From positions 1-64,000 of the forward strand of contig JBFLGF010000089.1 of NCBI GenBank assembly GCA_050230475.1: DNA of 64,000 bases, read 5' to 3'. Position numbers and translations under genes: made by a program. Under the pieces are notes generated by a model. The model did no database searches. It saw only the letters and a program-made list of their open reading frames with translations, and was not told the DNA's origin. Positions within the stretch are counted from its first letter, which is position 1. Every line of letters starts with the position of its first letter. Positions 14,389-60,942 of the stretch are shown piece after piece. This stretch comes from Ancylonema sp. Its lineage: Eukaryota.

Positions 14389-17300
14389 TCACTTTTGCTT
14401 GTCTTTTTTAATGGCCACCAACACCTTAAGAGCAGCCACCCACGGAAAGCTGACAAGGATAGGCCTCCAAGTGTCGGGCTGGTCCGCATCTTCCTCCTCT
14501 TCTTGTTCCATATCAAACCCCTTGCGTCTGGCCAACCACCCACGATTGTATGTGACGTAGTACCAAGCGCTAGCACGGGCTCGTGCTTCAACGGAGTTTA
14601 CGGCCTTATTCCACGCGGATGCCGGGATCGACTGCCGATGAGTTTCTCCATCGTGCCATCCCTCTCTCGCATCTCCTTGTTGGCGATGTGCCTCCCCGTA
14701 GAGAAAGAGGGCCTTGAACTCATCCGTATGTGATTTGAAGGCGAGTTTGACGCGGTCTTTTGCGTCTCCAATGTCGCGTTTGGATTGGTTGGCGAGGTGC
14801 ACTACGTGGCCGGTCACAAGCTCGCCCTCGGTGGATATACCGAACTGCAAACCATCTCAATTGTCGAAAAAAATGTTTTGCCCCCCCAAACTTTAGGCTC
14901 GACGGCATAAGCATGCTTGCAAAGGGAGCACGCGACTATAGAGAGGAGAAGCCATCCACATATGTGAAGGTCACACGTGTGTTTGCAACGCCTCATTTTA
15001 TCGAACAAAGACATCCACAACTTTTTAGTGCATGGTGGTGGGAACGTCATTTGCATCGCTATTATCCTCCTAACCAAATTTAGTTTGCAATTCTAACAAA
15101 AAACATACTCCCGCGTTGCTCACATTACGCATCAGTTGCATATTCCCTTCATCCCATTGGCACTTGAGCTTCCACGCCTCCTCCAAGTACTTCTCGTATC
15201 CAGGCACCACCAAGTCCTCATCAAAACCAGAAATCACGCTGGCCTCACTCGGAAACCGTTGCGTCTCCTCTTCACCTTCCACAACTTTAATTCTTGGGCC
15301 TTCTCCAACACCCATCGTGTGTCCGGTTATCTTCTCCTTGATGGATCGATACATGCGTCCAATCACTTTGTTGGACTTGTATGACTCCCGACCCTGCCTT
15401 TCCATGAAGTCTGGAAAAGTATCGGGCCGTAAATCCCTTAGCATCACGCCGGGCTTGCCGGTTTTGGGGAAGTCGACGGCAAGGGCCGCTTCCTTGGCGA
15501 GCCTCAGACAGTTTGGGTCCTTGGCCCCCATATCGCTCATGTCCGCGTGGACAACATGAGCGTTGCATATCACCCCCAAATTTGCATTGGTCATATGGTC
15601 GACAAAAAAACGGCACAAGCCCTGCAAGACAGGGGAAAATATCACTAACTCAAGCCCAAGTGATGTTGAACGCGTTCAAAACGCACATATGTTACTTCTT
15701 TGTTGGATCTCTTTGCATCAAAGTCAATACATAGTCATCGCACAAAACGAAACGAGACTACAACGACCATGGAGGTTAGACGACACACAAACATGGCCAC
15801 AACACAAAATTCGCCAACAACAGAACACTCTATCCTTCGCTACACGCCTTCCATTCAATGCACACCTCTTCTTGCACGGTCTCAACGAGGCTGGTCGACG
15901 CCTCGAGCTCCATCGGGGTAACACTCGCAAGCGGAACAAGACCTTCGTCCCACGAAACGAGGTAGATATCTCCGTCAAAATCGCTCCCAGAAGCCTCGCT
16001 AGCGTGAGATTGGAGTCACTTCGTTGGCAGCACGAGCTCGTTTACTTTGTGGTGCAAATATGGAACATCGACGGCTTCCAAAACGCGGATGTCTCCCGGA
16101 TGCAAGCAAGGGTTCTTCCCGAAAAACACCCGCCCCGTGATTACCCGAGGTGTCGATCCCCGCCCTCTAGCTCGGTTATTTTCCGCAGCTTCGGTCGGAC
16201 CCGTCACTTGGATGAAACATTGCCCGTACTGCATCATAGTAACACACAAATTGTTATTACAAAAATAAAATAGTGTAGAGTCAGGCACGTCCAACCTGCA
16301 TCCTAAACGATACTCGCGTGTTTTTTCCTCGGAACAGACTCGTACTACTAAGAAAAAGAACAACGAAGAGTCCAAGGAATTGGATGAAAGACAATGGCGC
16401 GGTGAGAGTATCGGTTCATTAGAGCTCAAATCCGTTGTGAAGCGGAACAAACACAAAATTTTAAACGAACACAATAACCCCATGATCATTTTGACGAGAT
16501 CGGTTACCTCCAATGTTTTTGTCTCATCCACCGTTCCTATGAGCCACCTTCCTTTGGGAACAAAGATCCTCGTCTTGGTCGAAAGATCTCCCACCTTCAC
16601 CGCTCTGGGGATCATAGGAAGGCGCATAGAGACATGGATCATTGCCTTGGAAGGGGATGAAATGGACCTCTTTCTCTTCATTGCACCTCTCACTCATCCA
16701 CGAAATAGACGAAAGTGTGATTGTTTGCATTGTGATCTGGCCTATAGACATGTCGCTCTGATATTGCATCTGATTCATGTATCCGTGAACTATCTAAACT
16801 TGACCGTATCTTGGCCGAGTATTCACTTAAGATTCTTGTTCATATACGTAACTTAATGATAAAAAACTTAATGAACTTTATGATACATGTTAATGTATCA
16901 TAATGTTTGTGTGTTGTCCATGCCTGATGGCTAGAATCATGTTGCGAAGGTGTGGGTCGCGATCGGGTTCAAACCCCGCCCTCAACATCGTGATTGCCGC
17001 GCTGTGGATGTCGGATGTTGCTTCCATAAACGACAAAGCATCCGCACGACTCTCTAATACGGAATCCAGAGTCTCCACCATTTTCTCCTACGTACAACAT
17101 GGCGGAGGAGGAACTTCATGGGAAGCATTTTCTTTTTAATTCTCGGATGTTCCAATAGATGCAACCACCTTTTTGTCAAATACTTACTTCTATATGACAA
17201 TCCGCGCAATGGAAACGGTTTCCAATGGTACGCATGGTTTGAAAGGAAACAACGACACGCATCAACCATACATAATAATATCAATTCATCGCACCCAACA

Positions 17301-20200
17301 AGCATACGTACTTCACCCCTAGGGCGGAGAGGATGGTGATGATCTGACGGTTCAAATAGGCGGGCATGAATTTCGCCCAGTTCGAAATCTCCAAGTCCGT
17401 GTGGGTGCTCGGGAATTTGAACATGCTCTCTCGGAACGTGATTTTGTGCGTCTGCGGTATACTGTCCGTGGGCCACGCGGCCAACACGCCCTTGTAGCCG
17501 GCGTAACTGCAAGAGTGGAGAAAAGGCCTAGATTAAGCCAATTAGATAAGAAAGGCGGGGTAAAAAAGGGGGGTGGCAAGACGTGGATGGCACAGAAAGC
17601 ACGATCCATGTTGACATGAGTTTAAGATAGATCTAAGTTAATCTTTACCATCAATCTTCATCACGTATAAATCCCACAAACATAGTGGAAATTTGACGTT
17701 ATCAAACGTGCAAGCAATTCATGAGAAGTCATCATGTTGACAATTCGTAAAGACACGCACCGAATCTGATACGCCGAAGGCGATTCGAAATCCGCATATT
17801 CCAACCGCTCCCTCAGTGCTTGCGCAACCTCTTCCGCGAAATCCATCCTCATGAGCCCAATCCCATCCGTGAAAATGTTTTTCTTCTCCCTCGCGCCCCC
17901 CTCTCTCTCCATATCCGGCAGGCGCGTAGTTTGTCTCGCGGGAATTTTTTCGCTGACTTTTGCCGACGAGAAGAACTGTCCCATCCTCGCCAACCGCTTG
18001 GCGGTGTTGGAGGTGGACTCGAAATTCCCCATCATGGCGCGGACTTTCTGGAGGGAGAGCTCCCCGGGAACCGGCGCGAAGAACCAGGCCGACTTCCCGC
18101 GTAGCTGCGATGTGGACGAGGCGAGGAAGTCAAAGTGGAGGCCGCAAAAGTTAAAGCCCTGGAAAGAGAAGAATGTGAGAAATAACATCGGAGATGGATG
18201 AGTTTTGGTCGCATACGAGGCAGGGAAACAAGTTGGTGTTTCGTAAGACTAACTTCCGGATGGGATTTGGAAAGAATGACGTGAGGACTCTTGCTACGTA
18301 AGATAATTTACCAGTAGGATCCCGCGATGTATGGGTGGTATAAACGAGTTTCCTCGGCAATCACTTTCATTGCAATCCAAAAGAAACAGTTGAGGGTGTG
18401 TTGGAAAGGCAGTGACGTAAACCTGCAGTACGATTTGCAGGATCTTGTCGTAAATGGTTGTCTTTTCCTCAACCCGCTCCCTCATCCCCCACACTGTGTG
18501 GAGGAGTGCAAAAGGAGATAGGTCCATCTCCCGCTCGTCCTTGAAGACGACCCTCAAGAAATGATCGGAGTAGTGTCGGAAATGGCGGAGGACTCGGTTA
18601 GGATACTCGGGCTCGGCAGGGAACGCTGCGGATGGGGATGGGGGAACAAAAGGGGAAGGCAAGGGGACGGGGAGTGGAAAGAAAATCGAAAAATCAATCT
18701 GCGGTTTTAGAAGGACATCCAAGATTGCAAGTTGTTAGTCATTCATCGAGTTTCGAAGACATGTTATGAGAGGTATTGTTTTGACTTGACCAAGAAATTT
18801 CGAGAGTCTGAGGTGTACTTCCGGGTACCATGCTCTATGAGGGAACGCGGGCGAATATTACAAGGAGTTATAAGGGTGGGTAGATCACTCTTACACTCTT
18901 TGTTTTGGTAAAAGTCAGAAGTGACGGCTAGTCAGTATTGGTGACAACGTGAAGTTTAATGTTACACCTCAATCACTTGTATTGTGGTATCGGTCTCGAA
19001 TTTCCATCATTGGGAACACTTGGAATCCTCACAAACTGGAATGCGTAAAGACCAAAATTAGTTTCGATTGCAATGCTTCCAATATTGGATTGAGGAGGTT
19101 CATGTTCAAAGAAATTATTGTAGCGTCACAAGTTTGATGATACACATTATCAGAATCCTTGTCCCAAAATGAAGCAGGATCTCTGAGGCACCAACAACTA
19201 TCACCTACCTGCAGCAGAAGTAGGAGTGATGACCACGCGCCGAACCAACACATGCGTGCCATGATGAACCAGACTCCTCTCATTCAGAGTCCAAGAAAAC
19301 GGCCCGTTGTCGCGTACCCGCCCCGCCTCCACCCTGAATCGCTGGGCAGCGTTTGGTTCCGGTTTGCGGTAGGGCAGCATGCGCAAGAGGGCAGATTCTG
19401 CCACGTCAGCATCCTCTCGGAGGACAGCCGAGTTCACACGTTGCACTTCGGAAAGCGAAATGATGCCCTTGAGCACGAGAGCGGACACCAAGAAATCGAG
19501 ACGGAATGGAATCGCACCCGTCCCTCCGTAGAAGTACGTTTGTGGAGGGATTTCGATCTCCTTCTTCCTTGTGGAGATGAAGTGAGCTCCCGTGCGAAGA
19601 AGTTTGATCCAGCGGCAGGTATCTAGGAGCCGTTTCGAAACCGCGTCAACATCTTGTAGAAGGTGGGAGGGGAAGGTGAGGACCATGACTTTCCATAGGC
19701 CCAATGAACCGCCGGTAAAATCAATGCTGCGAGCCCAGATGTCGTCATCTTCACCCTGCCACGGTGGACTGCCCCCCCACAGAAGGATGGATGACTGGTC
19801 ACACGAATGTACATGCGGGGGGCAGCCGAAATCAAGGACGAGTGACACTCCTGATGTGGTCACCACAGGCCGACTAACCCTCTGCACGTGTCGCAACAGC
19901 CACTGGATCGTGTGCGCAGGGCCAGTTTGGCCATCCGACGTGTCCCTACAGAGAATCCGCAATTTCTTGCTGGCGTGGTCAAGGGCTACTCGTACGTTGT
20001 CCGCCTCCCAACCGACGTTGAATACGTGGTACTTGTCAAAGCATCCTAGCTCTACTCGGCCATCCCCGGGAAGAGGAATATAAGCTTTTCTTGTCGGCCG
20101 GGATCTTTTTCCAAAGTGCCAAAGTGAGATAGGCCATCATCTTCGATCAAATGTTTAACGAGGGCGGCAAACAGCTCTTCCATTTCAACGTGGAGCACAA
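14389..20200 (-). pseudogene. RDR6: RDR6-like RNA-dependent RNA polymerase, distal copy (RDR-A), probably disabled
   Basis: Nine exons with VRRVVITPT, NRVLRHF, FLASSTSQLR, ARMGQFFSS, FTDGIG, SAYQIR/YAGYKG, KNPCLHPGDIRVLEAVD, EASGSDFDGD (DFDGD at 15968-15982), AVDFPKTG and ASAWYYVTY. In-frame TGA at 16016-16018 and an apparent frameshift near 20060-20135. The 5' limit is approximate. Confidence 0.85.
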
Positions 20201-20491
20201 TTCGAAGGGCCAAACACCGTCAATGAACTGCAGGGAATCCAGCACATTGCAGACGAGATACACTTTTCACAGATTAGCGCATCTTTTTTCCTCCTCACAT
20301 CTCAAGCGCACGACACTTGGGTAAACGAGTCACTTCGCGCCAACGACTGCTCGGTCATGTCAGCAAATGGGGAGCTCCGCTCGATTGTAGATCCAGCTGA
20401 GCTGGACGAGCTCCATCGCTTTTCGCAAGTCTGGACGACACGGTGGACGTAACCGACACGTCGTGTCGAGGAAACGTACGCCTACCGTGTC

Positions 20492-22914
20492 TAGTGTTGG
20501 GGCCCACCCGCCACCCTCGTCCACCCGCGATCCGCTCGGGTCCGAAACCCACCCCACCCTGAGCACTTTGGCGGGTGCTATAGTGCCCACCCCCCTCCCG
20601 CCCTCCACCCGCCTTCCACCTGTCCCACCCGCGATGCACCCGCCGACCCGCCAACAATGGCGGGTGGGCGGGTTAAATGGACATTTTGAGTATGAAAACT
20701 TTTACAAAACAAAATACAAATGCTTATTAAGCATTACTTAACATACAAAATTAGAAGAGAAGTCAAATTTCTCGGATTTCGTACAATTTGCTCTATACCT
20801 TCATAGCATTTTGCTTACTCTGTTCATGTTGTTTTTCGGGTTGTTCCATCAAATTATGCTTATTTTGCACGTGTTATAATTGGGTCACCTGTAGGTGTTC
20901 CCCATGAAGACGGAGAATGTAACTGCCGTGATGGAGACAGGGGGGTTCATCGCGTCGCGACTCGACGAAGTGGTGCGGATGTTGGAGGAGAAGTATGGAG
21001 TTCAAGTGCTCGCAATGACTTCGGATGCGGCTGCAAATTGCAAGTTGGGCAGGAAGATTGCGTTGAAGTATCGGAAGGACATTCTTTCTTTGGATTGCGC
21101 TACCCATTTGGTGGCGCTGATCACATGATATTTTTTAAAGGTGGGTGTGACAATGTATTTAAATATGAATATTTAAATCATAAAAGTTTGCCAGTTCTTA
21201 TATCATATACATATATGGTTCATATATAATGACGGCTCATCATTCTGACAAGTTGAGCACGTGTGCACCGCGGCGATCGAGAAGGCGACAAATATCATCG
21301 ACTAAAGTGGTTCATGAGTCACTCGCTTGCAAACGAGATGAAGATGAAGGCGAAGGAGCATTACTGAAGAGAGTCGCTTTCTTGGTGCTTCATGTGTCCA
21401 ATCGTTGCTTTTTCATGGCGGATGCAATCTGTGCACTTCTTGAGGTAGGGTGTTTTTTAGGTGGATTCCTTTGGATTTTTGGGGTATAGTTTATTGCTTT
21501 GTGTTGTACTTTACGTAGGTGCAGTTGGCATTGCACTCACTCGTATTGGAGGAGGGCGCCTTTTTGAGATCTCCATCAATACCGGCTCTGAAGGAGAAAG
21601 TGGAGTTTGATCAGTTGGTGCAAAGACGAGGGGTTTTGAGCCCTACTAAAAATTGGTGAGCTAGTGATATTTACTTGCTACACATTCAGCATCACCATGA
21701 GTTTGTAACGTGCGGTGGGTGTGGTGGTGCAGGTTGCAATGGTTGTGGTGCCACTGAAGGTGGTCAATATCATTTCCGGAATTCGACAAGGCGACGCTGG
21801 GGGACGTCTTCAAGCGCATCTGCCAACTGTTCATGCATTTTGGTATTGTGGAGGATGAGGAGGTGAAGAACATCATGCAAAAGTCAAATCGAGGTTTGTA
21901 CCCACTTGTTCCAGCTGTTTTTCGTCTCGTTTCATGATCATCAATTGCAGCAAACCTCTAAACTCATTCAAACCATTGAGTTTCACGGACATGGAGAGCT
22001 ACATGTAGAGAAGTAGTGAGGTTTCCATTGTGCCTGGAAATTGTTTTGTATCGCTACTAGCACTGGTGTAAGTAATGAGATATTTTTCATTTGCGAGCAC
22101 CCTTGCAAATAGGCACATAAACGTCTTCTTGTATTTATTGCATGTTGTTGACTACTAGTAAGTTGAGTTTTGGTTGTAGATGAAAGAGATTGAGAAGTTG
22201 TGTCTGTAGATGTTCATCTAATATTAGTTAGTTGGCTACTATACTTAATGCAACAATGGTTCAAAATGTGCAACATTTTATTGGTCATTCCATGCATTTC
22301 ACTGTTTCATCCACACAAATAAACTAGCTTTGCTTCCTTACTTTGGGGTCGGTTACCGTGCGACAATATGAGTCACACTCTATATGGGCTACTCAACATG
22401 CACGTAGCCAAGACTTGAATAAAACATCGCCCAATTAATGCCAAATTGAAAAACATCCTTTCACGCACTTCATCGGGCGGGGTCAACCACGTGGAATTGC
22501 AACGGCCACCGCCACTCACACCAAAAAAAAAACTCAATTAACATGGATGTATGCATGGAACTCCTCACGTGATACTTCCGAGTTGTCCGTGTTGTGTATT
22601 GTTTCATGTACAATACCCTTGCACTAGGGGAAATGTCAAAATTGTCCGAAAACCGAGAAATCGGACATCTATTCCATTTTTTTGTGTTAAATAATACTTT
22701 GTATGCATTTGTTCATTCTTTTGTAAAAGTTTTCATACTCAAAATGTCCATTTTACCCGCCCACCCGCCATTTTGGCGGGTCGGCGGTTGCATCGCGGTT
22801 GGGGCGGGTGGAAGGCGGGTGGAGGGCGGGCGGGGGGTGCTGGCGGGTCGAAGGCGGGTCGCGGGTCCGTTTTCAACCCACCCGGCGGTATCTGGCGGGT
22901 GGGCCCCAACACTA
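20492..22914 (+). mobile_element. hAT DNA transposon with decayed transposase and a perfect 8-bp TSD
   Basis: 22-bp TIR TAGTGTTGGGGCCCACCCGCCA / TGGCGGGTGGGCCCCAACACTA. TSD ACCGTGTC at 20484-20491 and 22915-22922. Remnant peptide VLAMTSDAAANCK...LDCATHLVAL matches the hAT TDxAxN / CxxH motifs. Confidence 0.93.
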
Positions 22915-26012: not shown

Positions 26013-29000
26013 CTAGGAGGCTAAGGAGGTTAAGGAGGCTTCTCGCTCCTTGACCTTGCCTTTTTTAATTGAAGCCAACACTGTATCCCCCACCCACGCA
26101 AAACTCAACATAACAGGCCGCCTAGCCTTCGACTCCGCCTCCTCCCCCCCTTCCAGATCTAATGGCCTCTTTGCCAACCAAAAGGGATGGTACGTCACGT
26201 AATACCACGCACTCGCACGTTCACTCACCTCCTGCGGGAAAGCCTCCCCCCCACCCCGACTCCGTCTCCCTCGGATCACCACCACCTCATCCCCTTCCCC
26301 TCCCTCCATCTCTTCCCCCTCCCCCACACTGTCTCCCGCATCCGCCTGAGCGTTCCCTTCCCCTCCACGCACAACATCCTCATTCTCATCATTACTTTGT
26401 CCACCCCCCCCAATATCCCCACCTCCTTCAACCCTATGGGACCCTGGGGAGACATCCTGCTGGACAACCTCCTCACTCGGTTCATATGCTTCTCCGTTAC
26501 CCGATTCAGGGCCCACCCCCCCCTCCCCAACCACATCCACTCCTTCTCCTCCGCCATCGATATCACTTTCTGCCACAGCCTGCGATCCTCCTGACTCTCC
26601 TTCGCTCTTCTTGGGTGGTATTGTGTCATCCTCCACCCCCACCACCTCGTGCTCACTCTCCACTACAAGACTATGCCCCTCCTTCCCTTCCCCAACCGCC
26701 TCTGACCCCTCTGATCCCATGCCCTCCGTCCCCCCTCCTCCACCTCCCACCTCGCCCCCATCTCTCAATACTGGAGTGGATTCCCCCTCACCACCCACCT
26801 TGCTATCCCTACTGTCTCCCACCCCATCCCCACCCTTCTCCCCAGCCCGACCTCCCCCCCCGTCGCCAGATGGGAGGTCCTCCCCTGGGTGCACCTGAAC
26901 CCCATCCTCACTCGACTCCGTGCACCCAACCTTGCTGCCAAAAGAATAGCCCTCCCCCATCCCCTCACTCTCTGACAGAAAGTCCGTACTCTCAGAAACT
27001 ACACCCTCAAAATCTCCCTCTCCCTCCCCCTCACCCCCCCCCATGTTCTCCGCGTCAACGACTTTAGGCTCCCTGTCTCCATCTCCCGAACCTGACCCCC
27101 CAACCGCCCCCCCTCCGGCAGGCCCAGCCGCGGGTGGGACAGCACCCTCTTCAGCCGGCTGCACTGCAGGAGCGTCTGTCTCTGGAGGGGGCTCCTCTCT
27201 CTTCTCTTGTTTGAAGAGCATTTCTTTGAACTCGGCCCGTTTCCTGTTGAATGCGAGTCGCACCCGCTCCACCACCGTCCCCTGCTTATTGCGGAAGTGG
27301 CGCGATAGATGCACGATGAAGCCGGTCACCAGCTCAGCCTCGGTGGGGATGCCAAACTGGGGGGGGGGGGGGGGGAGGGGGAATCAGACATGGAGTTCAG
27401 GCAAGTTTTTTTTTTTCTTTCTTCTTCGTTTTCATGACTTTACACAAATGGCACTCTGTTTCCTTTCAATTGTGTACTGCATGACGGCCGGCGAGGGCCA
27501 AAGAAGAGCACTTCATGTGACCTCCGTACAAGCACACGTCCTTCTCTGGGTTGAGTCACTTTCTCAGGCGTAACCCCCATGTGCAACGCGCACTGTTCTT
27601 CAAGTCCGCAACAGATGCCACAGAATGCCGTTTTTGTTCATGATTCCTCCCGAGTGGAACTGAAGCAGTCACTATAAGAGGCCTAAAAATATATACACTC
27701 CAGTCCCGGATCCCCCAGTTTCACATACGTCCCCCCCCCTTCCCCCTCACATGATGCATGATGTTAAGGTTCTCCAGGTCCCATTTCTTCTTCAGCTCCC
27801 ACGCCTCGCCCACATACTTCTCATACCCCCCCACCACCAGGTCCGAATCAAACGCATCTCTCGCCTGCTGCTCCGAGGGCCACCAGAACCGACACGTGTC
27901 CGAATCCTGAGGGGCCTCTACCAGCGGCCCCTCGCTCTCCACCTTCTCGCTCACCTTCCTCTTCACGACGCGGTACAGAGTGCCAAGGATCCCGCTGGAT
28001 CTGTACGTCTCCTTACCCTCCTCCTTTTCCATGAAGTCAGGGTACTTTGTGACCCGCAGGTCGGGGGGCATCCTCCCTGCGATGCCCGTTTTGGGGAAGT
28101 CGAAGGAAATGGCCGCCTGCTTGGCGAGCTCCTTGCATTTCTCGTCCAGGGCCCCCAGGGGACTCAGGTCTGCGTGCACTAAGTGCGCGTTGCAGATGAT
28201 GCCCACCATGTCGTTCGTCATGTTCTTCACGAAGTGGTAACGGATGTCCTGACACACCGAATCGCACGAATCATAGGAGGATCAACATTTGGGATTCCAT
28301 ATCCGAGATCCAAGACTCGAGATCCGAGGTTTGAGATTCAAGATTTCAAGATCCAAGATTCAAGATGTCAAGAAACAAGATTAAAGATGAAAGATCCAAG
28401 AGGCACTTCTCTGCATCCCTCTTTTCTGAATGAAACTACACTGCCACCCTACATCCTCGGTATTCCACAAACCATCCTCCAAAACAATTCTGCAGAACCC
28501 CCAACTTCGCCCCCACTACCCCCCCCCCCCCAACCTTCGTCTCCACGCTCTTCTCCTCCCCCTGCACCGGAGCAGGCGCCGCATACACCATGGGCTCCGC
28601 GTTCACAGCATTCTCTGGCATCAGACGCTCGTCCCACGACACAACATACACGTCGCCGTCGAAATCCGATCCCGATGCCTCGTTGGCGTGCGACCTGAGG
28701 CCGGTGGCGGGCAGGATGAGCTCATCCACTTTGAAGTGCAGCCCAGGCACGTCCACGGCCTCCAGGAACCGGAGGTCGCCTGGGTGGAGGCACGGGTTTT
28801 TGCCGAAGACTATTTTCCCCGTGATCACCCTGGGGGGGGTGGTGAGGAGGTTGGGCGTCCCGGGCTTGGCGTCGTCTGGAGGGCCGGAAACACGGAGGAA
28901 GCATTGCCCGGGCTGCACACCCACCCCCCCCACCCCCCTTAACTGCCTTGAGCACTTTCGACTTTTGTCTGTATCAATATTATTGTGTGTGGGGGGGGGG

Positions 29001-29178
29001 TGGTGTATGGGGTATCCCTGTACCTGGAGACTCTTTGTTTCGTCCACTGTGCCTAGCAGCCACCGCCCCTTGGGCACAAAGATCTTGGCCTTGCTTTTCA
29101 GACTCTGCAGCTGGAGCGCCCTGTGGAGAGAGGGGGCAGGACACAAAACATCAGGCCTTGCTTGGAACTCAGCACCCA

Positions 29179-29209
<31 letters not shown>

Positions 29210-32200
29210 TCATCCTCCCGTCCACCGATGCACCGACACCTTATCATCCACAGGCAATGACCGAGAAGGAACATTTGATCTCTACTTATGCATGCCGTCA
29301 TACAGCACCACCCCTTGCGTTCGCCCCCCCCCCCCTCTCCCTCCCCCCCACCTCATTGCCAGCAGCATGCCTCTCAGGTGTGGCTCCTTCTTCGGCTCCC
29401 ACCCCGCCTTCAGCATCGTAGTGGCAGTGTGGTGCTCGTCCGCCAAGCAACTACTCTCCAGGAGCCACAGGGCGTGGACACCATCCTCCAACGCACGATC
29501 CAGACTCTCGATCATACTCTTCTGTGAAATACAGGGGGGGGGGACAGGAGCGAAGGATGAATGGCCTCCGATCATGCAGTCCACAAGATACAAAGAGGGT
29601 ATACTGATTTTCATGAGACAGTGTTGAGAAGTAGTACCAAAGTAGGGTCCCATTTCGGGACCTGGACACTTGGTCAGGTGCCATTTTGAAAAGGTATTCA
29701 AGCCAAGGGGAAGGAGGGAAGTATCGTGCTGTTTTTTCAGCTCTCTTCCTACAAACCTGGGTTTCGCCTCTCTATTTACCTGTCCACACATCCCTACCTA
29801 CATACGAACGTGTCCACAAAACTTGACAAACCTGACACAACACCAAAGATGTCAACCAACCATCACCCCCCAAAAAGTATAAATTCATCCCTCCCCAGTG
29901 CCCCACCTGCAGCGTATAGAATATGGGGCTGCCCACCCCCAGCGCCGTGAGCAGTATGATGATCTGTCGGTTGAGGTGCGCCGGCATGAATCTCGCCCAG
30001 TTCACCACCTCCAGGTCACAGTGGGCACTGCAGAACTTGTTCTGGCTGGGGCGGAAGGACAGCTGGGCTCCGCTACTGGGGTCTAGGGAGGCAGGCCACA
30101 CGCCCAGCACTCCCTTGTAGCCGGCATACCTACAGGAACACAGGCACAGGCACAGACACAGACACGGACACGGATAAAGGAGGAGGAAAGCAAGGGGTGA
30201 GGGGCGTAGAGGACGAGGAGCGGGGTTTTGGGGGCAATACGATGGAGGAGTCTTCCTGTTGTCTAGATAGACAGGCAAAGGGGTGTACCTTACCTCACAG
30301 GCAGGTAGGTACACCTGATCTCATAGGCAGGTAGGTATACCTGATCGATAGGCAGGATACTATACCTGATTTGCTAGGCAGGTAGGCCTATATACCTGAT
30401 TTGATAGGTATATATTTTTCTGAAACCTGATCTGATAGACATTTAATTTCTACCTGATTCGGTAGGCAGGACACCATACCTGATTTGGTATGCTGTGGGC
30501 ATGAGGCACGCCCCCGCCTTCCCCTGGAAAAACTCGCTCATCTCCCCCGCAAGCTGCAGGGCAAACTCGGGCCTCATCCTCCCCACGCCGTCCGTCAGCA
30601 CCTGCCTCCCGAACGCCTCCGACTCCACCTCCACGTCCGGGATCTCCTCGATGTCGGCGCGCGCCACGTGTTTGCGGTGGAAGGAGGAGGAGAAGCACTG
30701 CCCCATGCGCGACAGACACTTGGCCACGTTGCGGATTTGGGAGAAGTCCCCCATCCACCCCTGGACGAACTCGAGGGTGGGACCCCCCCGGGGCTCCGCG
30801 TAGAACCAAGCAGAGTTGAGGCGGAATTGGCTGTTGGAGGAGGCAAGGAATTGGAAGTGGAGGCCGCAGAGGACGAAGCCCTGGGGAGGAAGGGGGGGGG
30901 GGGGGGGGCGGTTGGGTGCGGGTTCGATTGGGTGGTTGGTGTTTCATCACGGTTTTTTTGAGAGAGATGAAACGATGAATGGTGAGTTTTCGCAGCTCAC
31001 AGTATTCGGGGGGAGAGTGGGGGAAGAGGGATAAGGGTGGGGGGGGGGGGACAAAAAAAAAAAACAAACAAACAAAAACAAACAAACAAAAGAAAGACGT
31101 GTAGTGTCTCCAAGACACAAAATCCATACCGTGGTTGTTTTTCCTCTTATGATCAATATTTACAACGCCTTTTTATTTGTTTTTTTTTTTCGCGGTTCCA
31201 CATGGTATGCCCTGCTGCCCTTTCCTGCCCAGTGAAGATGCACAACTTTATGGATGGCTGCAGTTGGGGAGACGCGAGTGCGAACCTCCGTAACAATTCT
31301 CAGAATGCGGTCGTAAATCTCCGTCTTCTTGTCCATCCTACCCACATCGCGACGCCCCGCCCTGAAGGGGTGGTTCAAAGCAAACGAATTGATCTTCCAC
31401 TGCAGCTCGTCCGTGAAGGTGACCCGGATGAAGTAGTCACTGAACTCGCGGAAGTGGCGGACGACGCGATTGGACAGCTCCATCTCCTCTGGGTAGCCTG
31501 AAGGGAGAGGGGGGGGGGCGTACGGAGGCGACACTATTGGTAGGTAATAGGTGTGGTGGTTTGGAAATTGTTTCCGCTTAAAATCGCACATTACGATCAT
31601 CGTCATAATTACCATATTTTTTTTTTTTTTTTTAATTTTTTTTTTTTGGCTTTTTTATCGTTCCTTTTTGCCAGCACCGCTCTCTTTCTTGTTAATTTAG
31701 AAGTCTTGGTTAGCAAACGAATATTTGAATCGTGACACATCACCTCTCTTCTTAAATGGGGAAAAAAAAGTAAAAAAAAGAAAAAGTGGGTGTCATAAAG
31801 AGGCCCCTCTCACCATACGCAGTGGTTGGCGTGATAATGACTCGTCTCACCATCGCATGGCTCACGGCGCTCGATCCCCCCACAGACGCAATACGTTTTG
31901 CACGACCCAACTCCATGTTGAACCTCTTTGCGGGATTGGTGCACATCTTGAAGTATCGAAGCATGCGTCGGAGCGCGGCCTCTGCTAGCGCCACGTCATG
32001 ATTCTGCACCAAGGCGTCGAAAGTCTTCGTGTGGGGATAAGCGATGACCCCCTTGAGCACCAGACTCGTGATGAGGAAGTTGAGGGCCAGAGGGAGGTCG
32101 CGCTGAGACTCGTAGGAGAAGAAGGGGAAGGGGACCCGAAAGTCGATCATCTTCTTCGTGTTCCAATGCAAGAAGTGGTCGTTGATGCGAAGCACGTCTA

Positions 32201-32990
32201 TCCACCGATACTTTTTGAAAACCGCTTGGCACAAATCGCCCAACTCTTTCTGCCACCGATAAGGGAACGTGACCAAAAACACGCGACACAACCCCAAACT
32301 CCCCCTCGTGAAATCTACCGTCCTCGCCCACGGATCCTCGTCGTCAGCCACCCACATGTCCTTTTGGAAACTGCTCTCCCAAATGTGGTCCTCCCCAGAC
32401 CGGGCGTAAATGTGCGGAGGAGCTGTGGTCTCCAGAAGCAGCCCCACCCCCTTCCCAACCTCCAACGGACCTCCAACCGCTTTGATGTTGCGGAAGAGCC
32501 ACTCTAGCTTGTACTTCGGCATCTGGGGTCCCTCGTTATGTTGTCTTGGTTCCATCACGAGCATGGCCATCTTCTTCGTGTCTAGGTTCACCTCCATTTG
32601 CACGGTGGGGAGATTGAATGTGACGTGGAAGTCTCCCTGTCTCTCCACGGCCATGGTGCCGATGTCTAGCGTGCCATCCTTCAACACGGTCGGAGATTTT
32701 CCCTTGGGTTGGCAGAACTCGGCGTCCACTTTTGCCCCCCACGGCTTCCATTGCCCGCTTTCTGCTTGCTCAAGGACGAAACGCGCACTCTCTTCAGTGG
32801 CCAAGTGGACGTATGCGTACCCGGAGTGCTTCCAGGTTTTCTTGCCCTTAAGCAAAACGGTGGAGCCTTTGATTTTGCTGCGCAGGACCTCCACGTGTAA
32901 CTCCTTTTTCAATAGCTTGTGGAGGCGGTCCACATTCTCGTTCGGTGGGAGGTTACTTATGCACAACTGACAAGAAGGCTCCTCACTCAT
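26013..32990 (-). CDS. RDR6: RDR6-like RNA-dependent RNA polymerase, proximal copy (RDR-B), apparently intact, 9 coding exons
   Basis: N-terminal RRM-like region (LCISNLP...GYAYVHLATEESA), YKLEWLFRNI, DDEDPWARTVDFT, VRRVIITPT, ELSNRVVRHF, RMGQCFSS, AYQIRYAGYKGV, KNPCLHPGD, ANEASGSDFDGD (DFDGD at 28652-28666), ASAWYYVTYHPFW and VMLSFAWV. EASGSD, TYHPxW and VMLSFAW are RDR6-type. No lesions seen. Confidence 0.92.
28303..28400. repeat. Degenerate 7-bp tandem repeat (TCCAAGA/TTCAAGA) in an RDR-B intron
   Basis: Visible 7-bp periodicity. Confidence 0.6.
30288..30485. repeat. Degenerate ~25-bp minisatellite (ACCTGAT..TAGGCAGGTAGGTAT) in an RDR-B intron
   Basis: About 6-7 copies of an ACCTGAT...TAGGCAGG unit next to the exon donor. 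Confidence 0.7.
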
Positions 32991-35271
32991 TGCCTACAAG
33001 AAAGAAGAAGGCGGGGATGTACTTGATGATACTCAAAAGCAAAGAGGTGGGGGTCGTGTGTTGAGATTGTTAAACTCTATGCATACAAGTATCTATGTTT
33101 TTATGTGCGTATGTATTTATGTGTCCAAGTAATATGTTTTTAGATGTGGTTATGTAAATATGTACTCACATATCCATTTACATGTGCATATATGGATTTA
33201 AGCAACTACTCGCGCGTGGGTTTCCATACGTTTGTTTGTCCGTGAACACTAAAGTGAACATGAATGTGTGTGTATATACATGCACAAAGTCAATGATCGT
33301 ACACACACACACACACATGCCTTCACCTACAGATACATAAATACAAGCATTTTTTTATTTAAATATATAGAGGAATGTAAGCGCACATATGAATAGAAGT
33401 ACAAGCAAATGAAATATGCATATGATGAGAAAAAAAATTAGAGGTGTACATGGATGGGCGAAGGGAACAAATATTTATACATAGTATGTGTAAGAAGGAG
33501 TAGGTTCGAGTAATTCAGAGTATTCGAGTATGTACATGCCGTTGTACACACATCACGTACCTAAGGTCACACATACATACATCTATAGATACAAGCATGT
33601 AAATATAAATACAGACATGACACGTGAAGAGGCGTACAAAAACAGCAGTCTAAATTGATAATGTCACGACCGGGGATGGGGGGGGGGGAAACAAATAAGC
33701 ACGCCAGATTTTGGGTGGAAAGCCGACATCTGGCGGATGATTTTCTACCTGATTAGACGAGTTATTCATTTCCACGGTATTAATTTAGACAAGTTTCAAT
33801 GTACATACAAGAGTGACACTACTGCAACGCATACATGGATGCATACAATTGCATGTGCGGACATAAGTACGCACAAACATACATACATGTGTATGTCGGC
33901 ATATGTATGCATACACGTTTGCATACATACATGAAGTGCATAGATACATACGTCCATACATATATACATACATACGTACATATACATACATGCAGACATT
34001 CATCATACAAGAATTCGGTTTGATTGAAGAATGTTACAGTTGTTATTGAAGAATGTCTTCGTCAAAGGCTTTGTTCAGTCTTCCATCCTCGCAATTCTGG
34101 TCATCCCGTTTCAGATGGAGTTGCATACGAGCCGTTCATGCGGCACAAAAGAATGAAAGTTAGAGCACATATTCTGGAAGCACTAGTGATTCGAAGACGG
34201 CATGTATTTCGGTAAGGACTCAGCACTCGCCATAATCACTCATGTTACTTCAGCTTGATGCCACAAGGTGTGTGTGAATAAATTTAGTACCCTCTGCCTC
34301 CAACTCCACATTTTAAGGTCGATCGGTTGGTATATGAGAGCAAGAAACATAAATCCAGTAAAAGAAAAAATCAGAAGGTTCAGGAAAAGTCCATTGCATT
34401 TCGTATGTTTCTCCATCATATTACCAGATGCAGGTGTCGACGTGGATACATGATCTCCCGAATCAGAATGTAAATTAGTCAGAGTTGCCTTTGCTGAGAA
34501 GAGAGTAGCACCCAATGTCTTAAACGTTCACAACAATAAAAGAATCGTCCTGCTACCTGTCAGGCATGTAAGGGTTCCAGCATTTCTTCATTCAGGACGT
34601 GATTTAGGACGTACAATATTTTCAGGACGTGAACAGTAAAAAGTAAAGCAGCAGAAGCGTACCTCGATATAGAATCTGGTCAAGAATCGTTCGATGTCGC
34701 GACTTCGCCCCTCAGAAAGTCCTTCGCCCACTCGAATTGACAAGAACTGGTTACTCTCCTGATGCTCAAACGGGGCGGCCGTCCGTTGGTCCAGACAACC
34801 ACTTCGAGATAACGAGCAAATGAGTTCACGCGACCTTCTTGAAGTCAGACTGTGGCGCATTTGGCGACGGAGACCATTCATGTGGTCGTCAGTCGTGACC
34901 CTCACGCTTGCATCTGAAATTCTGTAGAAGGAAACCGGTATTTTGACGTGGGAATGTTGCAGACGGAAAATAATGCAGCCGGATCAATCAAAATTGCATA
35001 CTCGAATTCGGTACCTATCAGTACCTTTCTGTGAGTTTTGAACGCTTGTAGAAACAATCGACAGTACTGCCTCTAGACTGCGTGCCAGACTTAGGACATC
35101 AAATATCGCGTGTAGAGTTGGCGGGTACAAGACGCGAACGGGATTCTGGACCACTCCTCCCGAGGGCATGTCTGGAGATCACGTCAAGCTCCTCCAGAGA
35201 GATATTTTTTGTTAGATCACGAAGGGTTATTGGAAAGTCTCAGGTTTCCTCTTGAATTGGCAAGTGGATAC
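32991..35271. promoter_or_regulatory. Divergent intergenic region between RDR-B and SGS3 (putative bidirectional promoter plus 5'UTR introns)
   Basis: Start codons at 32990 (-) and 35272 (+) face away from each other. A splice acceptor CTTGTAG lies just upstream of the RDR-B ATG and TTTTTTTGTTAG lies at 35216 before SGS3. AC/ACAT-rich simple repeats occupy ~33.3 and 33.8-34.0 kb. Confidence 0.55.
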
Positions 35272-38200
35272 ATGTATAACCAAAGAGGTCGAGGTAGAGG
35301 AAATAGTAATGGAGGTGGATATGGGAGAGGTGGGGGTGGAAAAGGCCGAGGCAAACCGAGGAATCAAAAGCCTCTGAACTTTGATTCGCCAGAAGGCGAT
35401 ACTGTCTATGACAGACCAGTCGTAGGAGATGCACCGCAGGAGGTAGGAGATGGGTGGGGGACGAAGCTTGGGTCTGCGGTCCCACTCAAACCAAAAAATA
35501 AGGCCTGGGCTAGCGTGGCGTCGGAAACGAGCGAGGCAGAGTCTATGTACGGTAGGGACTGGATAGCACGAGAGGACTTGAACAGACATACTGTAGAGGT
35601 GGTCAAGCCTCCATCCGTACCCGGCCCTTCTCTGCGCGTCGACAAAGGAGGAATCGGGCCAGATTTCACGAATAATTTGCCAGACCATTTTCCGGGACTG
35701 CCTGCCAGCAGGACCTCCCGAGCGGATAGCAATGCAGGCCCGATTGAACCTTGCCCTGAAGTCGGTGAGACATGCTAACACACAGAAAACAAAATACAGC
35801 TATGAAGAAGACATGCACACTTGTATCAAAGCCCTTCTGACCCGGATATGAAGCAAGACAGAATGTGGACAGAGCAATCACTGGTTCGTATTTCACTTGC
35901 TATTAGTGCAGCAGACAAAGATACTGTACCTGTTGCTGTACCGGGTCTTCGTTTGTCACAAGCTCTGGCGTTTTACGGAAGCATGTCAGGCATTTGTATG
36001 ACCAGCGATGGTGATGATCAGCTCCACGTTACTCGGCCGCGTTTGAGCGGATCGATTTTGGCCACATCACAGAAGTACTCCTTGTAGGGCGCTCTGACTG
36101 TCTCAACTACACCCCAAAGTGTGTGAAGTACGTGTCTTCACATGTACCCGACGCCAACAGTCTCACCACACACCCTCACAAACAACAGAGGTAACCACAC
36201 GCGTTTCCATCCCGTTCGCCTCTCTCACAGTTCCTCCTCTCCTCCCTCCCTTCCTCCTCTTCTGCAGCCACCAACGGGACCCCCCCCCCATCAGGACCTC
36301 CTTCCACACCTCCCTCCGAGCCCATCCCCCCCCAACCATGGCCCCCCGTCTCCTCCACCAGGTCTGCTGCAACAGACCCGAAAGGCAAGCGGCCAGCATC
36401 CGTCCAATCGGAATCCGACCGCTACTCAGTCGGCAACAGCTCCACCACATCCGTGGGAACCTACATCCCTCAGTTTGGCGCTAAAGAAACAGCTCAGGGG
36501 GAGTGCTCCAAGGGATGCGAACGCGACCAGAGCGAATCCGAGGAGATCAGTTCCGTGACCGACTCGGAGTACCCGACCCTGAGACCTCCCGGCCAATGGA
36601 CGCCGCGTCAGAATAAACGCCACGGGAATTGGCTGCAAGACGTGGATCCCCACCGACCCCCACCCTCTGTGGATTCTCTCTCCCTGGCGGGCGACAGCAC
36701 AGACCAAGGCTATGCTCCCTCGGACGCAGCTGCGCTGGCGGCAAGGATGGAGCAGGGAAGCGATTCTGGAGGCTCTGAAATCGACTGGGAGGATGACGAG
36801 AGCGAGCCCGAGGAGGACAGCGATGAGGACGCCATTCCGAACAACGTACTGGGGAAGAGCCTCGTGTACAAACACAGCAAGGTGTTTCTGGCTGCAAGGC
36901 ATTAGGATGTATTAGCATCAAAGGTCGAGGCCGGTTTCTCCTGATTAATATGGTGGACATCATCAGCTAAATGGTTGCTGCTTTGATTTTGATGCCTTAT
37001 TATCCGGATCAAAGAATGGGTCTCATTATTAACATTTTCATCTTGTATGTGATCATTTTAACCTGATTTTTTTTACTTTTTTTAATAAGAGTTTATCGTC
37101 AGAATCAAAACACATTTCCTATAACCTGGAAGAGCGAGGTTGACCAATCATCTTCCGTTTCATCAACATGACAGGAGGTCATGCAATTCCTAAACGACAT
37201 CACCACCGAGCAGCCCGCTGCCCTCGTCAGCGCCACTCAGGAGTGGAAATGCAAGGTATGCGCAGGGGGCCCCGGGTCCGGAGACTGGTACCCCGGGCTA
37301 CAGAGCCTCGTGTTGCATTCGAGGACGATCCAGACCCGCAAACCGACGGCCCACCGCGAATTCCTGAAGGAGCTGAAGAGGCGTCTGGAGGAGAGGGACG
37401 TTTTCATCGCCAACCTCACCACCCCCAAGCTCACGGGGCTGTGGAGCGCGCCTGTGGATAGCAGAGTGGATGATTTCGAGGAGAGCGTGATGTGGCCGCC
37501 CATCATTATGGTGGTCAACACGCGGTTCGCCAAGGAGAATGATATGGTGGGGCCCAAAACGGAAACGAGGTTTGCCTGCTGTGGAATGCAAAGTTTTTTT
37601 TTTCCCAGAATGTAGAGTTGTGGTTTGTTGTTGTTGCTTTCTGGAACCCATGCGACAGATATGATGTCTTCTGTGCACCGCCCTGTATGTCTCCGAAGGT
37701 GTGCTGGATGTCGTACTAAGCAAATAGTGTGTGGTTTGGTCTGTCAGTGGGTGGGCATGACGCGGACCGAGCTCGAGATGCAGTTCCCTTCCTACAAGAC
37801 CATACTCAAGGGAGAACATGCCTACGGGCCAGAGGTGAGATGGAACGCAGTTGTCAGCACTTGTTGTTGTTGTTGTTCCTTCTACATTCCCCCCCCCCCC
37901 CACGTTTTACTTTGAGTTGTACACTGTTTGGCAGTATCTGTTCGGTAGCTCCGTTTGGGGTGAAGTGTTGTGCCGTCACAGAAATGCACGTTTTGTTCCT
38001 CATGTCACGGGCTAGAGGCCCACGCCCACAGGCACCTACAAAGATGGTTCCGAACGGTTCGGAAACGCATGACAATGCCCACGCACACGGGCCATGCATG
38101 GGTCATGGGTCATGGGTCGTGGGTCGTGGGTTCCTACCCTTGAACACCCACTTTTTGTAGCACTGGTATCGGTATTCAGAATCCACTCTCCCGCGTCTGT

Positions 38201-40705
38201 CTGTCGCTACGGTAGAACATGTGTGCGATTCAGGGGTGGGTCGTATCTGGGACTGCACTGCTGGTCAAACTGACTGAACTCCTTTTTTACTGTCCGTTTG
38301 TGACTTGCCTTCTATTCGCAGGGCCACCAAGGGGAGTCTGTGCTTATTTTCGCTGAGACAGCAGAGGGATACCTGGAGGCAAAGAGGCTTCACGAGCAGT
38401 TTAGTAGCAATGGCCGGGGGCGCAATGAGTGGGCTCGTGCCTCCTCTAGTCGCATGGGGAAGGTGGACATGAGAGTGGATTACGAGGGGAAGAGGATGCT
38501 GTTCGGCTACTTTGCCAAGCCGGAGGACCTGGAGAGCTTCAACAGGCACCAGAGTACGTGGACATGCCACTTTAACTACTCGGCATGCCTTGTCAAAAAT
38601 GTTAAAAAAAAAAAAAAAAGTCTCTTGATAAATGCTACCTTTATATTTTTCTTTCTTTTTCTTTTTTTGGAGGAGGGTGGGGGGGGCTGCAAGTCAGTTG
38701 CCATCTTTGAGTGTCAATGTAATGCTGGAACAAAATTGCTTTGAAGTCTGAAAAATGAAGTACGAAGTACGAAGTATGGTGTTTGAAGTTTGAAATTTGA
38801 AGTATCAAGTTTGAGGTATGATCCCTGGTGGTGACCCACGATTTACCACTGGAACCAAATCGCAGATGGGTAGAGGACCCAAAATCCAGTCCCAAGGCTG
38901 CCTCGCCTTCTCACCCCTTCTCTCCTTCCTCCTCCCCCTCCTCCCCCTCTGCCCCCTCCTCCTCCCCCTCTACCCCCTCCTCCTCCCCCTCCCCAGAAGA
39001 CAACCGTAAGCTGACCTTCAAATGGAAGAAGCTCCGCGCCGTCCTCGACGAGCCCCAGAAGCTTCTCGAGCAGACGCGTCAGGAGAAGGCGATGACGAGC
39101 CACAAGCTCCACAGGATCGCGGAGGAGAACGCGGACCTGCGCGCAGAGAACGCGCAGATGAGTTCCGACAGCAGTGTCCAGAAAGAGGCCGCTGAGGCCG
39201 CCCTCCAGCAGGAGAGGCAGGCCAGCCGGGTTGCGAGAGCAGAGAAGGAGCACAGCGCGCGCACGATCACCATGCTGCAGGGGATGGTGAAGAGGGTGGA
39301 GAACGAGAAGAAGAGGGTGCAGAACATTGCGGAGGAGCAGATGGCGAAAGCGTATCAAAAGGTGGGGGCGGCATGGGGGAGGAGGAGGGAGGGAGGGAGG
39401 GAGGGGTGGGAGAGGGGGGTCGGGGAGGGGGGGGGTAGTAGGGTTGCAGAAGTAGGAGGACGGTAGACCTGGGATGAGTGGGGGAGAGGGGTGAGACAGA
39501 GAGAAAGAGAGAGAGGGAATGGGAGGGAGGGAGGGAGGAAGAGAGGAAGGGAGGGGCACTTGTTACTGCGTTATGTGAAGGGGCCCACTCTGTGTCAGAT
39601 ACCTCACCGCTCTGTGTGTAAGAGTAACCCCACTGTATCCTTGTACTATCTTCTCTACTTCTCCTCCTCGTTTCCACTGCGGGCTCTCCCTCCTGCCTGT
39701 ACCCCCCTCATCCCCCCCCCTCTCTCTGTCCCTGTGCGTGTCAGATCGAGGCTCTTGAGATGAGTCTTCGTGCAAAACGGAACGAATCTCATCGTATGGT
39801 GGAGGGCGCGTACCTGAGCATGCGCCAAAAGAACGACGAGATTGTGACGGGGAGGGACGCGGTGCTGGCGGGAGACCAGAAGGGGAAGGTGAAGGCAGAC
39901 GGACAAGATTGGTGAGTCACCCCTCGCCCTCTCCCTCGCCCTCTCCTCGCCCTCTCCCTCTCCCTCTCCCTCTCCCTCTCCCTCTCCCTCTCCTCTCCCT
40001 CTCCCTCTCCCTCTCCCTCTCCCTCTCCCTCTCCCTCTCCCTCTCCCTCTCCCTCTCCCTCTCTTTCCCTCTCCCTCTCCCTCCCTCTTCTCCTCTCCCT
40101 CTCTCTCCCTCCCTTCCTCCCTCCCTCCCTCCCTCCCTCCCTCCCTCCCCCCCCCGCTGTTGCTGCTGCTCCCTGTCGACCCCTGCTGCTGTGTCCCCTG
40201 GTTGCTTGCCAGGTGGCGCAAGGGTGGAAGAAGCGAGTCCGAGGAGTCTGAGACCAACGCCCGCGTGGAGCAGTCCCTTCTGGTACCCCTGGAGATGCGT
40301 GAGTTGCTGAACAAGGTGGATACGGAGCACCTGGAGGAGATGGTGGCCCACAAACTGCAGGGGAGTCAGAAGGAGGAGGACTACTTGAACCTGAGGGAGG
40401 AGGTGATCAAGGATTTGATGGCCAAGCACCAGAGGCTGACAGAAGGGGGGGGGGCGAGTGGGGGGGGGGAGAGTGGGGTGGAGGATGGGGGGAGTGGGGA
40501 AGGCAGTTGGCGGCGGGAGGGGAGTGGGGGCACCAGTCCGGCTGTCAGTGAGTGGGAGACTCAACCCAGCAGGAAGGGAGGCAAGGGAGGCAAGGGTGGG
40601 GGTGGGGGAGGGAAGGGGGGAGGGGGAGGGAAAGGGGGAGGGGTAGCGGCGGGAACAGGCGGGACGTACAGCCAGCCTTGGGAGAAGGCAAGGACTTTCA
40701 AGTAG
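35272..40705 (+). CDS. SGS3: SUPPRESSOR OF GENE SILENCING 3 (zf-XS, XS and coiled-coil domains), about 8 exons
   Basis: zf-XS: EWKCKVCAGGPGSGDWYPGLQSLVLH...HREF. XS: VMWPPIIMVVNT / WVGM...HAYGP / GHQGESVLIF..TAEGYLEAKRLH / RMLFGYFAKPEDLESFNRH. Then a coiled coil (KLHRIAEEN). The N-terminus is RGG- and Pro/Ser-rich. TAG at 40703-40705. Confidence 0.92.
39920..40148. repeat. (CTCTCC)n / (CTCC)n polypyrimidine microsatellite in an SGS3 intron
   Basis: More than 20 hexamer copies followed by CTCC repeats. Confidence 0.95.

Positions 40706-60911: not shown

Positions 60912-60942
<31 letters not shown>

What the first reader, a model, noticed from the sequence alone, without database searches (positions are those of the whole stretch)
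14389..40705. Physically clustered RNA-silencing module: tandem RDR6-like genes head-to-head with SGS3
Seen: two RDR6-like genes in tandem, with an SGS3 gene facing away from the intact copy about 2.3 kb ATG-to-ATG. Established: RDR6 and SGS3 are partners that make dsRNA for secondary, antiviral and trans-acting siRNAs in siRNA bodies, and in Arabidopsis their genes are on different chromosomes. Inference: two non-homologous members of one complex sit side by side, which suggests a co-regulated, co-inherited RNAi cassette, possibly for defence against viruses or transposons. The divergence of both proteins hints at a specialised RDR-SGS3 pair rather than the housekeeping one. I do not know of such a cluster in plants, but I cannot search the literature.
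Basis: partly seen in the sequence, partly recalled or inferred. Interest (0 to 1): 0.9.

Follow-up and report, generated by a model that had tools for sequence, protein, structure and literature searches.

The report
Head-to-head algal RDR6–SGS3 gene pair

Summary
An intact 9-exon RDR6 gene (1,499 aa) faces away from an intact 8-exon SGS3 gene (940 aa), 2,282 bp ATG-to-ATG. Single contigs of two runs of one sample bridge the gap, so it is no assembly join. A second RDR6 copy lies in tandem: 44% identical, same intron phases, broken in this assembly. Trees put both copies in the RDR6 clade beside Closterium, with an ordinary branch length, so divergence does not show specialisation. The algal clade carries DFDGD/DMDGD instead of DLDGD. 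The 'co-inherited cassette' reading is unproven: no SGS3 in 52 RDR-bearing contigs (8 independent plant RDR6 groups with at least 6.7 kb upstream); Arabidopsis unlinked; Klebsormidium accessions far apart. No zygnematophyte genome and no RNA could be tested. A splice-site scan suggests a 5'-UTR intron that would bring the two starts within about 600 bp. Verdict: ordinary proteins in an unreported, lineage-restricted layout; shared promoter about 45%, chance about 38%.

The parts
26013..32990 (-). RDR-A: intact RDR6-clade RNA-dependent RNA polymerase, 1,499 aa. Exons 32990-31814, 31497-31286, 30880-30480, 30129-29907, 29521-29352, 29120-29024, 28912-28535, 28248-27751, 27356-26013
28652..28666 (-). 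Catalytic motif of RDR-A, DFDGD (all three Asp kept); the same variant stands in unnamed relatives P0003 and P0004, while Closterium and Chara have DMDGD
26238..27197 (-). About 320-aa Gly/Glu/Asp-rich low-complexity insertion in the last exon of RDR-A; copy B has a much shorter stretch here
32994..34662 (-). Predicted 5'-UTR intron of RDR-A: strong acceptor 3 nt before the ATG, best minus-strand donor of the spacer at 34663. Inference only
   Evidence: matrix from 23 modelled introns of the window
34600..35271 (.). CpG-richer patch, the predicted shared (bidirectional) promoter region; untested
   Evidence: bridged by single contigs
35272..40705 (+). SGS3: intact, 940 aa; N-terminal low-complexity region with one GWG and an acidic patch, zf-XS-like finger, XS, coiled-coil-like region, no XH hit. 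Exons 35272-35764, 36268-36881, 37175-37546, 37748-37834, 38322-38553, 38997-39361, 39745-39911, 40213-40705
14389..20183 (-). RDR-B: old RDR6 paralogue, broken in this assembly (TGA at 16018-16016, 8-bp duplication 20126-20111, no RRM, R to Q at an invariant site near the active site). Exons about 20183-19209, 18625-18423, 18158-17761, 17506-17308, 17087-16924, 16604-16508, 16228-15866, 15621-15124, 14844-14389
20588..22839 (.). 2.25-kb element bounded by about 200-bp inverted repeats, 400 bp upstream of what remains of RDR-B; likely a non-autonomous DNA transposon (no Pfam hit in three ORFs over it); a further copy of the arm at 62285-62484

Best explanation
An intact RDR6 gene and an intact SGS3 gene, the plant partners that amplify silencing by making double-stranded RNA, lie head-to-head in what is likely a zygnematophyte alga and likely share one promoter region, in a layout that appears confined to this lineage. 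The proteins most likely work as in land plants (inferred from orthology): SGS3 binds small-RNA-targeted RNA through XS, engages Argonaute through its disordered N-terminus, and recruits RDR6, whose product is diced into secondary siRNAs. A predicted 1.7-kb 5'-UTR intron would put the RDR6 start within about 600 bp of the SGS3 ATG, so both would be switched on from one open-chromatin patch and stay matched in amount (inferred). The tandem second RDR6 is an old duplicate that has likely decayed.
For: Shown: gene models and orientation; bridging contigs; RDR6 clade membership with SH-aLRT 98, grouped with Closterium at 99 (FastTree 0.999 and 0.995); SGS3 identity; RRM region matching P0004; GWG and acidic patch in the SGS3 N-terminus, the features reported as needed for AGO1-dependent amplification (10.1101/2025.10.18.683247, abstract and passages). 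Suggestive: acceptor score 9.9 three bases before the RDR-A ATG, top minus-strand donor at 34663, CpG-richer patch 34600-35200. For this named pair chance is about 1e-4. Precedent: Chlamydomonas DCL1 and AGO1 are adjacent, divergent and conserved in two related species (PMC10226591, passage).
Against: One genome only. No conservation found: Arabidopsis, Klebsormidium by accession numbers, 0 of 52 RDR contigs. No expression data in hand. The splice matrix rests on 23 sites and the second-best donor (7.7 at 33561) is close in score to the best (8.2). A 2.3-kb spacer is not unusually short in this window (the A-B spacer is 5.8 kb; and the sequence). Contigs of further RDR6-like copies exist in the same sample, which raises the odds of a chance neighbour. 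With thousands of known partner pairs, a chance head-to-head case is expected somewhere in a large scan.
Confidence: 0.45

Rival explanations
1. Chance neighbourhood: a rearrangement put one of several RDR6 copies next to SGS3. Both are ordinary genes with their own promoters, and the adjacency has no function.
For: No conservation in any genome or contig tested. Several RDR6-like copies in the sample. One chance case is expected per about 1,900-25,000 partner pairs examined. Transposon-like elements lie nearby.
Against: The probability for this named pair is about 1e-4. It is the intact copy, not the broken one, that abuts SGS3, and the orientation is divergent. The tested outgroups are distant, and the Chlamydomonas precedent was reported only within one genus.
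Confidence: 0.38
2. Specialised defence cassette: this RDR6 and this SGS3 are a diverged, co-evolving paralogue pair for virus or transposon silencing, separate from a housekeeping pair elsewhere in the genome.
For: The RDR6 family appears expanded. RDR-A has a 320-aa acidic insertion and the DFDGD variant. The SGS3 is about 300 aa longer than the two angiosperm SGS3.
Against: RDR-A's branch length is at the median. DFDGD/DMDGD is shared across algal RDR6. No second SGS3 was demonstrated. A 196-species survey reports no subfunctionalised SGS3 clades (10.1101/2022.01.18.476847, passage).
Confidence: 0.1
3. Relic of an ancestral streptophyte linkage: RDR6 and SGS3 were neighbours when SGS3 arose and were separated later in land plants and some algae.
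For: Both genes first appear in streptophyte algae according to passages. Old linkages of non-homologous pathway genes are reported in plants (PMC9516744, abstract).
Against: Klebsormidium nitens accessions lie thousands apart; no linkage in the land-plant loci tested.
Confidence: 0.07

Closest known systems
Land-plant RDR6 (SDE1/SGS2, SHL2) with SGS3: secondary and trans-acting siRNA amplification
   Same: RDR6 clade in two trees; RRM-like region, RDR6_2nd and RdRP domains; SGS3 with zf-XS-like finger, XS, GW dipeptide and acidic patch.
   Different: The genes are adjacent and divergent here, unlinked in Arabidopsis. Catalytic motif DFDGD, where 139 of 152 fetched proteins have DLDGD. A 320-aa acidic insertion in RDR-A; SGS3 940 aa against about 650.
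Chlamydomonas DCL1-AGO1 divergent gene pair (PMC10226591, passage)
   Same: Two non-homologous RNAi genes, adjacent and divergently transcribed, in a green alga; functional linkage proposed.
   Different: Different genes and lineage. That pair is reported conserved in C. incerta and C. schloesseri, whereas conservation of this pair is not shown.
Streptophyte algal RDR6 (Closterium CAI6011244, Chara GBG74512/CBR_g18922, unnamed P0004)
   Same: Same clade, non-L residue in the DxDGD motif; near-consecutive RDR ids are listed for Chara (g18920, g18922) and Mesotaenium (ME000480S07859, S07862).
   Different: Their neighbours could not be read. The Chara ids may be one split gene, since g18922 lacks the N-terminal part and carries an RT domain.
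Conserved linkage of non-homologous pathway genes in plants (sMYB-PRR, PIF3-PHYA; PMC9516744, abstract)
   Same: Non-homologous genes of one pathway held near each other.
   Different: Those linkages are traced across many genomes; this one is a single observation.

Membership tests
RDR6 (RDR-alpha, plant RDR6 clade): RDR-A | RdRP domain PF05183 with three catalytic Asp (DxDGD) | tested here: met
RDR6 (RDR-alpha, plant RDR6 clade): RDR-A | Groups with named RDR6/SHL2 rather than RDR1/2 | tested here: met
   SH-aLRT 98 for the 14-row clade with Citrus RDR6 and Zea SHL2 (27 rows picked from 202 proteins); FastTree 0.999 (the 62 best of 114 rows covering the core)
RDR6 (RDR-alpha, plant RDR6 clade): RDR-A | N-terminal RRM-like domain and RDR6 second domain | tested here: met
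   RDR6_2nd E=3e-12; RRM_1 only E=0.1, but it aligns with the RRM of P0004
RDR6 (RDR-alpha, plant RDR6 clade): RDR-A | Canonical DLDGD motif | tested here: not met
   DFDGD, shared with P0003 and P0004; Closterium and Chara RDR6 have DMDGD, so the L is not universal in this clade
RDR-gamma (RDR3/4/5), considered because DFDGD is its recalled hallmark | Groups outside RDR1/2/6 | tested here: not met
   Nested among named RDR6; no labelled gamma sequence was in the tree
RDR6: RDR-B as a working enzyme | Open reading frame through the catalytic motif, RRM present | tested here: not met
   Stop, frameshift, no RRM, 137 of 156 invariant residues kept; not checked against reads
SGS3 | XS domain | tested here: met
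   PF03468 E=1.5e-12, above cut-off
SGS3 | zf-XS finger upstream of XS | tested here: met
   No Pfam zf-XS hit, but a continuous alignment with the finger of P0185 and P0186, which carry PF03470
SGS3 | No XH domain (separates it from IDN2/FDM; recalled) | tested here: met
   No XH hit on the C-terminal exons scanned one by one
SGS3 | Binds RNA and acts with RDR6 in siRNA bodies | not testable with these tools
   inferred from orthology
Conserved bidirectional gene pair / co-inherited cluster | Adjacency conserved in related genomes | tested here: inconclusive
   Absent in distant relatives; zygnematophyte genomes not available
Conserved bidirectional gene pair / co-inherited cluster | Transcription starts within about 1 kb | tested here: inconclusive
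   ATGs 2,282 bp apart; a predicted UTR intron would bring the starts closer
Conserved bidirectional gene pair / co-inherited cluster | Co-expression | not testable with these tools
   no RNA data in hand

The most novel reading that the evidence does not exclude
Probability: 0.2. Interest if true: 0.65.

Novelty: new member of a known kind. Interest (0 to 1): 0.4.

Why it matters
If the pair is conserved and shares a promoter, it would be a second case of RNAi partner genes held head-to-head in green algae, and the first found (in the ten searches made) for the amplification step. It would point to dosage balance between RDR6 and SGS3, and it would offer one locus to knock out or reporter-tag secondary siRNA production in the algal sisters of land plants, where the role of RDR6-SGS3 before tasiRNAs is open. 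If it is chance, the window still documents an intact algal RDR6 with a DFDGD active site, which shows that this motif alone does not mark RDR-gamma.

Tried and rejected
No whole genome is held for the window, so RDR and SGS3 copies could not be counted. No RNA holder was listed. A word-based protein search with RDR-A exon 1 found nothing among 6,398 candidates. The SGS3 alignment found no locus in metagenome contigs (237 pattern matches, 0 confirmed). The RDR alignment found no locus in prokaryote genomes and one weak 24-residue match in viral contigs (not followed). Rfam: 0 matches. The sigma-70 promoter scan does not apply to a eukaryote and was at chance level. The ESM Atlas did not hold P0002; P0185 was used to confirm the SGS3 label. 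The supplement with RDR and SGS3 ids for 207 species (Plant Physiol 2023, PMC10231463) is not held and the preprint's supplements are closed; it would bear directly on conservation. Supplements of the Mesotaenium, Spirogyra and PeerJ SGS3 papers were unreadable; the Zygnema supplements held none of the four terms; a Chara transcriptome paper was not held. The parts of the window not covered by metagenome run X3 are no evidence. Copy B's lesions were not checked against reads. Rejected: assembly join; RDR-gamma identity; IDN2/FDM identity; an RDR-SGS3 fusion in 17 long or related RDRs (no XS domain); copy B as the source of the extra RDR contigs (8 of 23 letters match; A-B identity 65-69% there).
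Full report
Observation. The window is eukaryotic and intron-rich. Exon-by-exon Pfam scans place RdRP pieces in order on the minus strand twice (5 ORFs at 27.7-31.7 kb, 4 at 15.1-18.7 kb) and an XS domain on the plus strand at 38.3 kb. Gene models built from coordinates give RDR-A (32990..26013; 9 exons, 8 of 8 introns GT-AG, 1,499 aa, no internal stop) and SGS3 (35272..40705; 8 exons, 7 of 7 introns GT-AG, 940 aa), 2,282 bp ATG-to-ATG. A metagenome of another study holds short pieces of both genes and of the spacer, with 1-4 differences in seven of the eight listed, but bridges nothing.

What the genes are. The catalytic exon retrieved 1,880 proteins at E up to 0.001, of which 150 were listed. 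The named top hits are Closterium proteins, a Marchantia paleacea protein, Sesamum and Citrus RDR6 and grass SHL2. In an IQ-TREE quick tree of 27 rows, RDR-A and RDR-B are sisters (99), group with unnamed P0004 and Closterium (99), and sit in a 14-row RDR6 clade with Chara g18922 and land plants (98), apart from Selaginella RDR1 and Chara g45545; FastTree on 64 rows agrees. The organism is therefore likely a zygnematophyte (inference). Both copies read DFDGD at the active site; among 152 fetched proteins 139 have L, 5 M, 2 F and 6 no match. DFDGD as a hallmark of RDR-gamma is recalled, not from a call; here the variant belongs to algal RDR6. RDR-A's end branch equals the median (0.52) and it keeps 145 of 156 residues invariant in 11 references (leave-one-out range 0.93-0.99), so it is not unusually diverged. 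The SGS3 model aligns at 33-36% over about 265 residues with two angiosperm XS+zf-XS proteins, one of which the Atlas groups with SGS3 clusters. Two unnamed environmental relatives are 72-76% identical in exon 3 and are continuous across the modelled exon 2/3 junction. The N-terminus has one GWG and an acidic patch, the features reported as needed for AGO1-linked amplification (10.1101/2025.10.18.683247; abstract and passages). No XH hit.

Copy B. It is 44% identical to A with the same intron phases, and 126 of 211 fourfold sites differ: an old duplication. It has a TGA shortly before the catalytic motif, an 8-bp tandem duplication that shifts the frame near its 5' end, a GC donor, 7 residues missing as modelled, 137 of 156 invariant residues kept, and no RRM found by a profile in the 6 kb upstream. 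A 2.25-kb element with about 200-bp inverted arms lies 400 bp upstream. One caution: at 17 listed single-copy sites in 12 kb the window differs from the contigs (88 further rows not shown). Six of the 7 coding differences change the residue, and at two of them the contigs give the residue that the closest relative has. The window therefore likely holds consensus errors, or comes from another strain; at that rate 0.18 false stops are expected in a gene of B's size. The lesions were not checked against reads; together they still make decay the likelier reading.

More copies. Extra contigs at depth 74-150 each (single copy about 90-110) map on RDR-A at 28039-28117, 29967-30033 and 31439-31463. 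Their letters match B at 8 of 23 sites, and A-B identity there is 65-69%, under the 85% threshold. So further RDR6-like copies exist in the sample, in this genome or in co-sequenced relatives. Near-consecutive RDR ids are also listed for Chara and Mesotaenium (PMC7994812, supplement rows), so tandem RDRs are probably ordinary, though the Chara pair may be a split model.

Is the adjacency conserved? Not where it could be tested. Arabidopsis: AT3G49500 and AT5G23570 (PMC4788410, table passage). Klebsormidium nitens: SGS3 GAQ92898 (PMC5907777, passage) against RDR6 GAQ82122 and GAQ86307 (PMC7994812, supplement row). Reading position from accession order is an inference, supported by near-consecutive numbers for paralogues in the same row, and a second SGS3 is not excluded. 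Of 52 metagenome contigs with an RDR match, 0 gave an SGS3 hit at E up to 1e-3, while the same plant queries hit the window at 1e-12 to 1e-16. Only 8 independent groups of plant-like RDR6 loci had at least 6.7 kb upstream, and they may come from fewer than 8 species. No zygnematophyte neighbourhood could be read, so the test that matters most is open.

Mechanism. The protein work is inferred from orthology: RDR6 with SGS3 turns targeted RNA into dsRNA for secondary siRNAs (passages). For the layout, a matrix from the window's 23 modelled introns scores an acceptor 3 nt before the RDR-A ATG at 9.9 (modelled sites 2.3-13.7). The best minus-strand donor in the spacer is at 34663 (8.2; next 7.7 at 33561), and 34600-35200 is richer in CpG than the AT-rich 33-34.5 kb. 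A 1.7-kb 5'-UTR intron would place both starts within about 600 bp: a plausible bidirectional promoter, predicted and untested. Chance for this named pair is 4e-5 to 5e-4 under assumed counts of 15,000-25,000 genes, 2-8 RDR6 and 1-2 SGS3; one chance case is expected per about 1,900-25,000 partner pairs examined, which a scan of this size exceeds. I put a shared, selected promoter at 0.45, chance at 0.38, a specialised paralogue pair at 0.10 and an ancestral relic at 0.07.

Comparison with what is known. SGS3 and RDR6 in streptophyte algae are already reported (10.1101/2022.01.18.476847, passages; PMC5907777, passages; PMC7994812, passages). A divergent pair of RNAi genes is known in Chlamydomonas: DCL1 and AGO1, conserved in two related species (PMC10226591, passage). 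Linkage of non-homologous pathway genes is reported for clock genes (PMC9516744, abstract). In maize pollen drive, RNAi genes co-segregate from separate intervals and are not adjacent (PMC11390486, passages). Ten full-text searches (listings and abstract starts only, except where a paper is cited above) showed no report of adjacent RDR6 and SGS3. Most subscription journals, and the 207-species supplement that lists both families, were not visible. This scan's own notes held nothing on it.

Verdict. The layout is real and I found no report of it. The genes are ordinary RDR6 and SGS3 orthologues with a lineage-typical motif variant. The cassette reading is plausible, has a precedent, and lacks any evidence of conservation or expression. 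New member of a known kind; interest 0.4.

Noticed in passing
window 27300-39350: The window differs from the single-copy contigs of runs X1 and X2 at 17 listed sites, mostly G>T or C>A; 6 of 7 coding ones change the residue. Likely consensus errors or another strain.
   Followed up: partly
window 36514-36519 (+): SGS3 exon 2 reads GC where both environmental relatives P0001 and P0002 have a GW dipeptide in an otherwise conserved stretch; a lost Argonaute hook or a base error.
   Followed up: no
window 26238-27197 (-): About 320-aa Gly/Glu/Asp-rich insertion inside the C-terminal region of RDR-A, open throughout; possibly a disordered, condensate-related segment or part intron.
   Followed up: partly
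window 56561-61662: Copia-type LTR retrotransposon with 445-bp LTRs 97.8% identical; gag, protease-region and RT pieces lie in several frames.
   Followed up: partly
window 52072-55861 (-): Multi-exon PPR protein gene.
   Followed up: partly
window 10244-12753 (+) and 45415-46257 (+): Long ORFs without Pfam hits: a coiled-coil-like protein and a helical-repeat-like protein.
   Followed up: no
window 5000-5320, 25350-25525, 48817-48876, 50276-50603: A dispersed repeat family, 70-83% identical between copies.
   Followed up: no
P0055, P0126, P0152 (not in the window): Unnamed RdRP proteins fused to a helicase domain and a poly(A)-polymerase-like nucleotidyltransferase, joining in one chain parts that act together in RdRP complexes.
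   Followed up: no
P0003, P0004, P0006, P0008, P0021: Algal RDR6 proteins replace the L of DLDGD with F or M, so this position does not separate RDR classes in algae.
   Followed up: yes
X2 record 11 and X3 record 16 on window 28608-28922: A low-depth RDR6 sequence about 87% identical occurs in both studies, probably a co-occurring relative.
   Followed up: no
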